This document shows positions 51,050 to 51,490 of a stretch of DNA of 64,000 nt, piece after piece (position 1 is the stretch's first letter; each line of letters begins with the position of its first letter). The DNA lies in NCBI RefSeq assembly GCF_003334255.1, contig NZ_QOWU01000004.1. One strand, written 5' to 3'. Under the pieces are notes generated by a model. That model was not told the DNA's origin. It saw only the letters and a program-made list of their open reading frames with translations, and did not search any database. The stretch is from Escherichia coli. Its GTDB lineage: Bacteria > Pseudomonadota > Gammaproteobacteria > Enterobacterales > Enterobacteriaceae. The position numbers and the translations under genes were made by a program.

Positions 51050-51490
51050 ATGAAACGACTTCTGATTCTTACGGCACTCCTGCCGTTTGTCGGCTTTGCA
51101 CAGCCCATTAATACTCTGAACAACCCTAACCAGCCGGGGTATCAGATACCCAGCCAGCAGCGGATGCAAACCCAGATGCAGACTCAGCAAATCCAGCAAA
51201 AAGGGATGCTGAATCAGCAACTGAAAACGCAAACTCAGTTGCAACAGCAGCATTTAGAAAACCAGATAAACAATAATTCTCAGCGGGTGTTGCAGTCACA
51301 GCCGGGGGAGCGAAATCCCGCCCGGCAGCAAATGCTGCCCAACACCAACGGCGGGATGTTAAACAGCAACCGTAATCCGGATAGTTCGTTGAATCAGCAG
51401 CATATGCTGCCGGAGAGGAGAAACGGCGACATGCTGAATCAGCCCAGCACGCCGCAGCCTGACATTCCGTTGAAAACTATTGGGCCGTAA
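51050..51490 (+). CDS. yhhA: Secreted Q/N-rich low-complexity protein YhhA (146 aa)
   Basis: [53 protein letters not shown]...; signal peptide then Gln-rich repeats. Confidence 0.9.

What the first reader, a model, noticed from the sequence alone, without database searches (positions are those of the whole stretch)
51050..51490. YhhA: secreted protein dominated by Gln/Asn-rich low-complexity repeats
After a typical signal peptide ([17 protein letters not shown]), the protein is almost entirely Q/N/T-rich repeats ([37 protein letters not shown]...), compositionally similar to prion-like or intrinsically disordered periplasmic proteins. Its function is unknown, and its 3' end overlaps the 3' end of ugpQ on the opposite strand.
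Basis: seen in the sequence. Interest (0 to 1): 0.3.

Follow-up and report, generated by a model that had tools for sequence, protein, structure and literature searches.

The report
YhhA: exported glutamine-rich stress protein
This is the already catalogued E. coli gene yhhA (family DUF2756), which encodes a small, exported, stress-induced protein made of one long glutamine-rich helix and a floppy tail carrying repeated Met-Leu motifs; its function is still unknown, and it is not obviously prion-like.

Summary
The ORF is real and lies exactly where stated: 51050-51490 (+), 146 aa. It overlaps the 3' end of ugpQ by 14 nt. It is yhhA, family DUF2756, and is present in 5425 of 5426 complete E. 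coli genomes.

The composition is extreme: 36 Gln/Asn in the best 80 residues. But there are no tandem repeats, and the Gln-rich centre is not loose low-complexity sequence. Residues 34-83 are a position-specifically conserved, strongly constrained predicted alpha-helix. Only the tail (84-146) is predicted disordered. The tail carries an internal ~24-aa duplication and Met-Leu dyads that are almost never substituted.

The family is tiny and limited to Enterobacteriaceae and Erwiniaceae. The gene almost always lies convergent with ugpQ. Published data place it in the sigma-S general-stress regulon and detect the protein in envelope extracts.

The best reading is a Sec-exported, non-enzymatic periplasmic stress-phase protein that works by binding. 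The mechanism is inferred. Amyloid, effector and metal-sponge readings are poorly supported. This is a known gene of unknown function, of modest interest.

The parts
51050..51490 (+). yhhA coding sequence (146 codons plus TAA), DUF2756 family
   Evidence: ORF. PF10956 E 1.1e-60. NF007675 265 bits against a cut-off of 136. Annotated as yhhA in E. coli RefSeq genomes.
51050..51100 (+). Signal peptide, residues 1-17 ([17 protein letters not shown]); predicted signal-peptidase I cut between A17 and Q18
   Evidence: Sequence features read directly. A17, Q18 and P19 are invariant in 25 genus-level homologues. No Cys anywhere.
51101..51148 (+). Conserved polar Pro/Asn-rich N-terminal motif, residues 18-33 ([16 protein letters not shown])
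   Evidence: N21, N24, N25, P26 and N27 are invariant, and P29 and Y31 nearly so. The QPGY..NPS element persists in distant short homologues.
51149..51298 (+). Gln-rich predicted alpha-helix, residues 34-83. It is bounded by a conserved P34-S35 at the N end (read as an N-cap) and by Q84-P85-G86 just after its C end. It is the ancestral core of the family.
   Evidence: AF2 helix 34-83 with pLDDT 70-83. pN 0.06-0.11 for residues 18-80. M43 is invariant and P34, S35, R38, Q47, Q50, L54 and Q72 are at least 90% conserved across distant homologues. No heptad periodicity.
51299..51487 (+). Predicted disordered tail, residues 84-146. It holds two ~24-aa units (Q-x-M-L-P ... G-x-M-L-N) and the C-terminal motif IPLKTIGP (51464-51487).
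   Evidence: pLDDT below 50. Internal duplication score 46 against shuffle 22 +/- 5. The tail is absent from the Erwiniaceae forms.
51206..51211 (+). Met53-Leu54, the first of five Met-Leu dyads (the others: 51332-51337, 51356-51361, 51404-51409, 51431-51436)
   Evidence: 5 ML against 0.65 expected, P about 1e-4. M53, M103, M119 and M128 are Met in 34-37 of 37 orthologues, while other hydrophobic positions swap V/L/I/M freely.
51036..51042 (+). Shine-Dalgarno sequence GAGGAGG, 7 nt before the ATG
   Evidence: Read. The GGAGG block is conserved in the alignment of 15 genera.
51015..51023 (+). Candidate sigma-S-type -10 element TAAACTTAA (inferred)
   Evidence: This is the most conserved block of the spacer: T91, A92, A94, C95, T96 and A98 are invariant in 15 genera. 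No sigma-70 consensus promoter was found. An RpoS-holoenzyme SELEX peak lies in the ggt/yhhA spacer (PMC5493296). The TSS was not mapped here.
50965..50998 (.). Two further conserved blocks in the ggt-yhhA spacer (TAAGCCTGGT..AACTC and AAtnAATCATCGT); unassigned, either a regulator site or the ggt promoter
   Evidence: Phylogenetic footprint.
51477..51490 (.). 14-nt overlap of the convergent yhhA and ugpQ coding regions
   Evidence: Convergent ugpQ is present in 85 of 86 homologous loci, with a 4-23 nt overlap in 72 of the 85. yhhA-ugpQ is listed among convergent excludons found from RNA-seq (PMC12288877).
51538..51576 (+). GC-rich hairpin plus TTTATTG inside the ugpQ coding region; a possible yhhA terminator (uncertain)
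   Evidence: MFE -51.8 kcal/mol for the 151-nt stretch, z -3.6. The stem is conserved, but there is almost no covariation and the T tract is not conserved.

Best explanation
The feature is yhhA, the founding member of the small enterobacterial family DUF2756.

Shown here:
- It is a real gene under purifying selection.
- It has five parts: (i) a Sec-type signal peptide with no lipobox; (ii) a conserved Asn/Pro-rich N-terminal motif; (iii) a ~50-residue Gln-rich helix (34-83) with a conserved motif at each end (P34-S35, and Q84-P85-G86 just after it), which is the ancestral and most constrained part; (iv) a lineage-specific disordered tail built from a duplicated ~24-aa unit, with Met-Leu dyads that are almost never substituted; (v) a C-terminal PLKTIGP motif.

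From the literature:
- It is transcribed as part of the sigma-S general-stress regulon and is induced in stationary phase and by cold, acid and envelope stress.
- The protein is made, and it is abundant in envelope extracts.

Inferred mechanism:
- After export and cleavage at A17|Q18, YhhA is a soluble, non-enzymatic periplasmic protein of stressed or stationary cells.
- It works by binding rather than by catalysis. The helix would be a conditionally folded interaction module. The four or five G/Q-x-M-L-N/P motifs in the flexible polar tail would be multivalent short linear contact sites for a periplasmic partner or for damaged envelope proteins. This makes it a hydrophilin-like or holdase-like protectant.
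- Because the coding regions overlap at their 3' ends, its transcript must run antisense into ugpQ. This may add mutual transcriptional interference with the Pho-regulated ugp operon.
For: Identity:
- The 701 bp spanning the gene are 100% identical to E. coli K-12 records, where the ORF is annotated yhhA; a match is present in 5425 of 5426 complete genomes.
- PF10956 E 1.1e-60. NF007675 265 bits against a cut-off of 136.

Selection:
- pN 0.06-0.11 in residues 18-80 and 0.27-0.31 in 81-146, with pS about 0.7-0.9, against Salmonella, Buttiauxella and Dryocola.

Architecture:
- AF2 gives a helix at 34-83 with pLDDT 70-83, everything after residue 90 below 50, and pTM 0.23.
- Distant Erwinia and Izhakiella forms of 80-103 aa keep only the signal peptide, the N-terminal motif and the helix.
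- The tail duplication scores above shuffles (P about 0.001).
- ML dyads: 5 observed against 0.65 expected. The Met is kept as Met in 34-37 of 37 orthologues, while positions 64, 73, 80 and 95 vary freely.

No enzyme or known fold:
- No PDB sequence relative, no Foldseek match and no other Pfam family.

Regulation and expression:
- An invariant TAAACTTAA lies upstream and no sigma-70 consensus is found.
- An RpoS-holoenzyme SELEX site lies in the spacer (PMC5493296).
- It is listed in the RpoS regulon after cold shift (PMC4057180).
- It is induced at the transition to stationary phase, by several stresses, by a LolCDE inhibitor and by mild acid.
- The protein is among the 15 most abundant in STEC surface/periplasm extracts (PMC9731836). 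It rises with sub-MIC beta-lactam and is detected in Salmonella.

Convergent arrangement:
-.
Against: - No experiment assigns a function, a partner or even a localisation. Export is inferred from the signal peptide and from co-extraction with periplasmic proteins.
- The helix is predicted only. Its confidence falls to pLDDT 60-65 in a tandem-dimer test, and it has no significant amphipathic periodicity.
- The hydrophilin definition is only half met: Gly is 5.4%, below 6%.
- Rare natural E. coli alleles delete or duplicate 9-38 residues inside the helix, so its exact length is not strictly essential.
- Some genera lack the C-terminal motif.
- No knockout phenotype was found in the papers searched.
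- Conserved synteny with ugpQ may be historical rather than functional.
Confidence: 0.5

Rival explanations
1. Prion-like or functional-amyloid protein. The Q/N-rich region would self-assemble into cross-beta fibres in the periplasm or outside the cell, in the manner of curli or yeast prion domains.
For: 36 Q+N in 80 residues exceeds the classical threshold of 30 or more. Residues 35-84 contain no proline, read from the sequence. The protein is exported, as CsgA is. Rare in-frame expansions and contractions occur in E. coli.
Against: - The Q-rich segment is predicted helical and is conserved residue by residue, including R38, K51 and the conserved ends. It is under the strongest purifying selection in the protein. 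Composition-driven prion domains usually tolerate sequence scrambling.
- The mature chain has one aromatic residue, the flanks are 11% Pro, and there is no similarity to CsgA or any other family.
- No nucleator or secretion partner genes are called in the homologous loci examined.
- Length is stable in 39 of 40 sampled E. coli genomes.
Confidence: 0.07
2. Methionine-based chemistry. YhhA would be a periplasmic sacrificial antioxidant whose Met residues are oxidised and then repaired by MsrP, or a soft-metal (Cu(I)/Ag(I)) sponge like SilE and PcoE.
For: Met is 5.4% of the mature chain (median 6.5% in orthologues). Five Met positions are kept specifically as Met rather than Leu, Ile or Val. The protein is exported and flexible, as SilE and PcoE are (established knowledge). 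It is induced under oxidative and other stresses in a meta-analysis.
Against: - The Leu that follows each Met is equally invariant, which suggests a peptide-recognition motif rather than thioether chemistry alone.
- There are no HxxM or MxxH motifs and only one MxxxM, read from the sequence.
- There is no homology to SilE, PcoE or CusF.
- No copper- or silver-responsive regulation was reported in the papers found.
Confidence: 0.1
3. The main role of the locus would be regulatory in cis. Convergent, overlapping transcription of yhhA (sigma-S) and ugpBAECQ (PhoB) would form an excludon, and the protein itself would be secondary.
For: The coding regions overlap by 14 nt. The arrangement is convergent in 85 of 86 loci, with overlap in 72 of the 85, including distant Erwiniaceae. 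yhhA-ugpQ is listed as a convergent excludon from RNA-seq coverage. No conserved intrinsic terminator lies between the genes.
Against: - The protein sequence is itself under strong purifying selection, and the protein is abundant.
- The overlap length varies from -23 to +96 nt. The C-terminal peptide motif is conserved even where the genes do not overlap, as in Buttiauxella.
- Mutual exclusivity of expression was not tested.
Confidence: 0.1
4. Type III secreted effector of pathogenic E. coli that mimics S/TQ-rich substrates of the host ATM kinase. This is proposed in bioRxiv 10.1101/364117, which calls yhhA an experimentally validated EPEC effector.
For: The preprint's statement, and the conserved clusters of S/TQ and QS/T motifs it describes.
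Against: - The N terminus is a canonical cleavable Sec signal peptide, read from the sequence.
- The gene is in 5425 of 5426 E. coli genomes, including K-12 laboratory strains, and in many non-pathogenic enterobacterial genera.
- It is sigma-S regulated.
- The primary source behind 'validated' could not be retrieved.
- S/TQ motifs are expected by chance in a protein with 22% Gln.
Confidence: 0.02

Closest known systems
DUF2756 (Pfam PF10956; NCBIfam NF007675, PRK10350), the YhhA family
   Same: It is a full-length member, and in practice the reference sequence. It has the same signal peptide, N-terminal motif, Gln-rich helix and tail, and the same ggt / yhhA / ugpQ neighbourhood.
   Different: Nothing differs. 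The family has no assigned function. Erwiniaceae members lack the Met-Leu tail.
Hydrophilins / LEA-like stress proteins (definition of Garay-Arroyo et al. 2000; bacterial examples such as E. coli YciG and YjbJ and Acinetobacter DtpA/DtpB, recalled from knowledge)
   Same: Small, very hydrophilic (index 1.40), predicted largely disordered or conditionally helical, stress- and sigma-S-induced, and recovered in heat-based extracts.
   Different: Gly is 5.4%, below the 6% criterion. The protein is Gln/Asn-rich rather than charged or Gly/Ala-rich, and it is exported to the periplasm. It shows position-specific conservation and discrete Met-Leu motifs that bulk 'molecular shield' proteins do not need. 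There is no sequence homology.
Q/N-rich prion-like domains and curli CsgA
   Same: Q/N density above the 30-per-80 threshold. Exported, as CsgA is.
   Different: Predicted helix rather than beta-prone repeats. It has charged residues at conserved positions, no aromatic ladder, no accessory genes and no homology.
SilE / PcoE periplasmic metal-binding disordered proteins
   Same: About 140 aa, Sec signal peptide, disordered to helical, Met-containing motifs.
   Different: No HxxM or MxxH motifs. Not plasmid- or metal-island encoded. No homology and no known metal regulation (sequence).
Other small sigma-S-dependent envelope proteins of E. coli (OsmY, YbgS, YahO, YmgD, PsiF)
   Same: They are co-regulated and co-extracted with YhhA in the cited transcriptome and proteome studies.
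   Different: They belong to unrelated folds and families, and none shares the Gln-rich helix or the Met-Leu motifs.

Membership tests
DUF2756 / YhhA (PF10956, NF007675) | Match to the family HMM above the curated threshold over the full length | tested here: met
   NF007675 265 bits against a cut-off of 136, residues 1-146. PF10956 E 1.1e-60, model 1-105 of 105.
DUF2756 / YhhA (PF10956, NF007675) | Orthologous genomic position (between ggt and the 3' end of ugpQ) | tested here: met
   The window has ggt divergent 119 bp upstream and ugpQ convergent. The same holds in Salmonella, Buttiauxella, Dryocola and about 80 further loci.
Q/N-rich prion-like domain | At least 30 Gln+Asn in an 80-residue window (Michelitsch and Weissman criterion) | tested here: met
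   36 in residues 21-100.
Q/N-rich prion-like domain | Composition-driven, disordered core that tolerates sequence change | tested here: not met
   The core at 34-83 is predicted helical with pLDDT 70-83. It is the most constrained region (pN 0.06-0.11) and is conserved by position.
Q/N-rich prion-like domain | Self-propagating amyloid formation | not testable with these tools
   This needs ThT, SDD-AGE and seeding assays on purified protein.
Hydrophilin | Mean hydrophilicity index above 1.0 | tested here: met
   GRAVY of the mature chain is -1.40.
Hydrophilin | Glycine content above 6% | tested here: not met
   7 Gly in 129 residues, or 5.4%.
Hydrophilin | Protects cells or enzymes during water deficit | not testable with these tools
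   This needs desiccation or osmotic survival tests of a yhhA deletion and in vitro enzyme-protection assays.
Canonical coiled coil | Heptad (3.5-residue) hydrophobic periodicity | tested here: not met
   Power at 3.5 is 0.08-0.11. The best peak in the helical range, at about 3.7, is no better than shuffles (P 0.05-0.4).
Canonical coiled coil | Self-association of the helix | tested here: inconclusive
   In a tandem-dimer AF2 model with a paired alignment, helix pLDDT falls to 60-65 and pTM is 0.25. Coordinates and PAE were not available.
SilE / PcoE metal sponge | Repeated HxxM / MxxH (or MxxM) metal-binding motifs and homology to the family | tested here: not met
   The sequence has no HxxM or MxxH (H68 and H118 have no Met at +/-3) and one MxxxM. 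No Pfam match other than DUF2756.
Type III secretion effector | Restricted to T3SS-bearing strains, with a non-cleaved N-terminal T3 signal | tested here: not met
   Present in 5425 of 5426 E. coli genomes, including K-12, and across commensal and environmental genera. The N terminus is a Sec signal peptide (sequence).
Convergent excludon | Convergent genes whose transcripts overlap | tested here: met
   The coding regions overlap by 14 nt, so the transcripts must overlap. The pair is listed from RNA-seq coverage in PMC12288877.
Convergent excludon | Mutually exclusive expression caused by the overlap | not testable with these tools
   This needs strand-specific expression data under PhoB-inducing and RpoS-inducing conditions, and terminator-insertion mutants.

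The most novel reading that the evidence does not exclude
YhhA would be a periplasmic 'sticker-and-spacer' protein. The nearly invariant Met-Leu dyads, set in Gln/Asn/Gly-rich spacers, together with the Gln-rich helix, would drive reversible multivalent self-assembly into a gel- or condensate-like phase in the periplasm of stationary or stressed cells. The architecture is analogous to FG-nucleoporins. Methionine oxidation could act as a redox switch on that assembly.
Probability: 0.06. Interest if true: 0.65.

Novelty: already known. Interest (0 to 1): 0.28.

Why it matters
yhhA is one of the E. coli K-12 genes that still has no function. It is unusual among them: it is near-universal in E. 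coli, belongs to the general-stress regulon, is abundant in envelope extracts, and is among the most Gln/Asn-rich ORFs one meets in this genome.

The anatomy worked out here gives concrete mutants and assays. The pieces are a constrained, conserved-ended Gln-rich helix as the ancestral core, a duplicated tail with Met-Leu dyads that are specifically kept as Met-Leu, a conserved C-terminal motif, a candidate sigma-S -10 element, and a deeply conserved convergent overlap with ugpQ.

If the protein proved to be a periplasmic protectant or an assembly-forming protein, it would add to the short list of disordered stress proteins known to act in the bacterial envelope. As it stands, it is a catalogued gene of unknown function and not a new kind of element.

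Tried and rejected
- Tandem repeats at the DNA level: none found. Only short dispersed repeats are present.
- Canonical coiled coil: no heptad signal. A tandem-dimer AlphaFold model built on a paired alignment lowered helix confidence instead of raising it.
- Relatives with a solved structure or a known fold: a profile search of PDB sequences gave only chance hits at E 1.6. Foldseek against PDB gave no match.
- Other family libraries: no PADLOC match. Pfam gave only weak chance matches besides DUF2756, so there is no link to Spy, CpxP, ZraP or other periplasmic helical families.
- RNA elements: Rfam gave only one sub-threshold chance hit.
- Sigma-70 promoter consensus: none in the spacer.
- Conserved intrinsic terminator after yhhA: the E. 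coli hairpin at 51538-51569 is stable. Across genera it shows almost no covariation and loses its T tract, so it may simply reflect the UgpQ coding sequence.
- Length polymorphism as a major feature: variant alleles of 96-165 aa exist, but 39 of 40 evenly sampled complete genomes keep the exact length.
- The primary source for the 'validated EPEC effector' claim: not held in the library, and the preprint's reference list is not held either.
- The wider alignment A3 was too divergent to seed a genome scan. A2 was used instead, so the genome scan found only the long form of the family.
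Full report

Yes. The six-frame ORF list gives an ATG-initiated ORF at 51050..51490 on the + strand. The glycerophosphodiester phosphodiesterase gene ugpQ lies at 51477..52220 on the - strand, so the two coding regions overlap by 14 nt at their 3' ends. A strong Shine-Dalgarno sequence (GAGGAGG, 51036-51042) sits 7 nt before the ATG.

The mature chain (residues 18-146) is 22.5% Gln, 14% Asn and 11% Pro. It has no Cys, Phe or Trp, and its GRAVY is -1.40. Its best 80-residue window holds 36 Gln+Asn. The next-highest value among the 80 ORFs of at least 100 aa in this 64-kb window is 18.

The word 'repeats' needs qualifying:
- Tandem Repeats Finder finds nothing. At the DNA level there are only short dispersed repeats.
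- What does recur is a Met-Leu dyad: 5 observed against 0.65 expected from composition, P about 1e-4.
- There is also one ~24-residue internal duplication in the tail. [20 protein letters not shown] aligns with [21 protein letters not shown] at score 46, against 22 +/- 5 for shuffles.

**2. What is it?**

The 701 bp spanning the gene are 100% identical to E. coli K-12 MG1655. A match is present in 5425 of 5426 complete E. coli genomes, always chromosomal, and the ORF is annotated 'yhhA: DUF2756 family protein' between ggt and ugpQ. The protein matches NCBIfam NF007675 at 265 bits against a cut-off of 136. It matches Pfam PF10956 at E 1.1e-60. It is therefore a catalogued gene of unknown function.

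**3. Anatomy**

An alignment of 25 genus-level homologues (A2) and one that adds distant homologues (A3) show that this is not loose low-complexity sequence.

- The signal peptide and the cleavage region A17-Q18-P19 are invariant. There is no lipobox.
- Residues 18-33 form a conserved Asn/Pro-rich motif, NNPNQPGY.
- Residues 34-83 are conserved position by position. M43 is invariant, and P34, S35, R38, Q47, Q50, L54 and Q72 are at least 90% conserved even in the distant set.
- AlphaFold2 with the family alignment predicts a single long helix covering exactly 34-83, with pLDDT 70-83. Everything after about residue 90 falls below 50, and pTM is 0.23, so there is no compact domain.
- The helix is bounded by a conserved P34-S35 at its N end and by Q84-P85-G86 just after its C end. 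I read these as helix caps; that reading is an inference.
- Codon-level comparison with Salmonella, Buttiauxella and Dryocola gives pN 0.06-0.11 for residues 18-80 and 0.27-0.31 for residues 81-146, with synonymous sites near saturation. The Gln-rich half is therefore the most strongly constrained part of the protein.
- The tail (84-146) carries the duplicated unit, four of the five Met-Leu dyads and a C-terminal motif (I/V/L)PLKT(I/V)xP.
- Across 37 orthologues, M43, M53, M103, M119 and M128 remain Met in 34-37 cases, and the following Leu in 36-37. Other hydrophobic positions (64, 73, 80, 95) exchange V, L, I and M freely. That points to a specific G/Q-x-M-L-N/P motif rather than generic hydrophobicity.

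**4. Distribution and neighbourhood**

The word-indexed search of 5.8 billion proteins found 467 relatives, and all those listed carry PF10956. An exhaustive profile search of 1.84 billion cluster representatives found only 80 at E up to 1e-3, many of them fragments.

The genome scan places the long form in many genera of Enterobacteriaceae. These include Escherichia, Citrobacter, Enterobacter, Buttiauxella, Franconibacter, Atlantibacter, Kosakonia, Leclercia, Cedecea, Phytobacter and Trabulsiella; a Salmonella orthologue is. Distant forms of 80-103 aa consist of the signal peptide, the N-terminal motif and the helix only. Those that carry a source name come from Erwinia psidii and Izhakiella capsodis. 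The helix is therefore the ancestral core and the Met-Leu tail is a later addition.

In 85 of 86 loci analysed the gene is convergent with ugpQ, and in 72 of those 85 the coding regions overlap by 4-23 nt. The short distant forms are also convergent with a GDPD gene. ggt is divergent about 117-139 bp upstream in most Enterobacteriaceae.

The C-terminal peptide motif is conserved even where there is no overlap, as in Buttiauxella. Its conservation is therefore not a by-product of the ugpQ reading frame.

**5. Regulation and expression**

No sigma-70 consensus promoter is found in the spacer. A footprint across 15 genera shows an almost invariant TAAACTTAA (51015-51023) about 27 nt upstream of the ATG. 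I read it as a sigma-S-type -10 element. Two further conserved blocks (50965-50998) remain unassigned.

Published data fit this reading:
- An RpoS-holoenzyme SELEX peak lies in the ggt/yhhA spacer (PMC5493296).
- yhhA is listed among RpoS-regulon genes induced after cold shift (PMC4057180).
- It is induced at the transition to stationary phase in O157:H7 (PMC2241611).
- It is up in a multi-stress meta-analysis (PMC9501238).
- It is induced by a LolCDE inhibitor together with Rcs and general-stress genes (PMC5105897).
- It is induced by mild acid.

The protein is made:
- It is among the 15 predominant proteins in STEC surface/periplasm-enriched extracts (PMC9731836).
- It rises under sub-MIC beta-lactam (PMC9927464).
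- It is quantified in Salmonella (PMC4265081).
- It is captured from E. coli lysate in a photoaffinity study. That capture is probably non-specific, because the probe is a cytoplasmic nucleotide analogue and the protein is exported.

yhhA-ugpQ is also listed among convergent excludons detected from RNA-seq coverage (PMC12288877).

**6. How it most likely works**

Shown: the domain plan, the selection pattern, the absence of any enzyme-like fold or relative, and the stress-regulon membership taken from the literature.

Inferred: the protein is exported by Sec and cleaved at A17|Q18. It then acts in the periplasm of stationary or stressed cells as a non-enzymatic binding or protective protein. 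The Gln-rich helix would be a conditionally folded interaction module. The four or five Met-Leu motifs in the flexible polar tail would be multivalent contact sites.

I put about 0.97 on the identity and architecture and about 0.3-0.4 on this mechanism, which gives 0.5 overall.

Two specific sub-hypotheses were tested and not supported:
- A canonical coiled coil. There is no heptad periodicity, and the weak peak at about 3.7 residues is not significant.
- Self-packing of the helix. A tandem-dimer AlphaFold model built on a paired alignment lowered helix pLDDT to 60-65, with pTM 0.25.

**7. Rivals**

- **Prion-like or amyloid.** The composition criterion is met. However, the core is predicted helical, is conserved by position and is strongly constrained. 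It is nearly free of aromatic residues and has no accessory genes nearby. I give this 0.07.
- **Met chemistry (redox sink or Cu/Ag sponge).** Met-specific conservation argues for it. The equally invariant Leu, the absence of HxxM or MxxH motifs and the lack of homology argue against it. I give this 0.1.
- **Cis-regulatory excludon as the main role.** The arrangement is deeply conserved, but the protein is itself constrained and abundant, and the overlap length varies. I give this 0.1, and it does not exclude the main reading.
- **Type III effector mimicking ATM substrates (bioRxiv 10.1101/364117).** This conflicts with the Sec signal peptide, with the gene's presence in K-12 and in environmental genera, and with sigma-S control. 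The primary evidence could not be retrieved. I give this 0.02.

**8. Comparison with known families**

It is a member, in practice the type member, of DUF2756. It works most like hydrophilin or LEA-type stress proteins and like other small sigma-S-dependent envelope proteins. It fails the hydrophilin glycine criterion (5.4% against more than 6%), shares no homology with them, and has discrete conserved motifs that bulk protectants do not need. It meets the numerical Q/N-rich criterion for prion-like domains but not the 'composition-driven disordered core' feature.

**9. Novelty and verdict**

The gene and its family are already known and annotated. The function remains unknown. The additions made here are:
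- the constrained, conserved-ended Gln-rich helix as the ancestral core;
- the duplicated tail with Met-Leu dyads;
- the C-terminal motif;
- the candidate sigma-S -10 element;
- the deep conservation of the convergent overlap with ugpQ.

These are useful handles for experiments but would not surprise a specialist. Interest is 0.28. The most novel reading not excluded is a periplasmic sticker-and-spacer assembly protein, possibly redox-switched through its methionines (probability about 0.06).

Noticed in passing
window 50965-50998: Two blocks of the ggt-yhhA spacer (TAAGCCTGGT..AACTC and AAtnAATCATCGT) are nearly invariant across 15 enterobacterial genera. They are not explained by the candidate yhhA -10 element. 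They could be a shared regulator site or the ggt promoter.
   Followed up: partly
window 51538-51576 (+), inside the ugpQ coding region: A stable GC-rich hairpin followed by TTTATTG lies about 50 nt after the yhhA stop (z -3.6). It looks like a terminator in E. coli. Across genera the stem shows almost no covariation and the T tract is lost.
   Followed up: yes
window 51426-51455 (-), inside the yhhA coding region: A terminator-like hairpin on the ugpQ strand (13 pairs, tail CGTTTCTCCT) falls within the yhhA codons for [11 protein letters not shown]. It may end the ugp operon transcript (z only -1.7). The palindrome GCTGAATCAGC that encodes MLNQ contributes to it and occurs twice in the gene.
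   Followed up: partly
L004 3680-4750 (Erwinia psidii): A CesT-family chaperone gene and an AvrPphF/HopF-family type III effector gene are inserted between ggt and the yhhA homologue. This breaks the usual ggt-yhhA divergent pair.
   Followed up: no
yhhA residues 40-117 in other E. coli and Salmonella (P0001-P0035, P0083, P0092): Rare natural alleles carry in-frame deletions or duplications of 9-50 residues, mostly inside the Gln-rich helix, giving lengths of 96-165 aa. One Salmonella allele duplicates 29 residues. They are rare: 39 of 40 evenly sampled complete E. coli genomes keep the exact length.
   Followed up: yes
window 51339 (yhhA nucleotide 290): The C41(DE3)-specific C-to-T mutation reported in PMC4632034 (Pro to Leu) maps to P97. 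That is the proline of the first QQMLP motif. The authors considered the mutation unimportant for the C41 phenotype.
   Followed up: partly
L046 (record titled Chryseobacterium sp. 18061): A record labelled Chryseobacterium carries a typical enterobacterial ggt-yhhA-ugpQ locus that is nearly the same as the Citrobacter sp. 18056 record from the same project. This is probably a mislabelled or contaminated assembly.
   Followed up: no
window 49188-50957 (-): The mechanical ORF for ggt starts at a TTG at 50957. The start conserved in other genera, which gives MIKPTFLRR, is the ATG at 50930. The true ggt-yhhA spacer is therefore 119 bp.
   Followed up: yes
window 51585-51600 region (ugpQ), from the literature: The genomic SELEX study also lists a peak for the flagellar sigma factor holoenzyme inside ugpQ, next to yhhA (PMC5493296). 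Its meaning is unknown.
   Followed up: no
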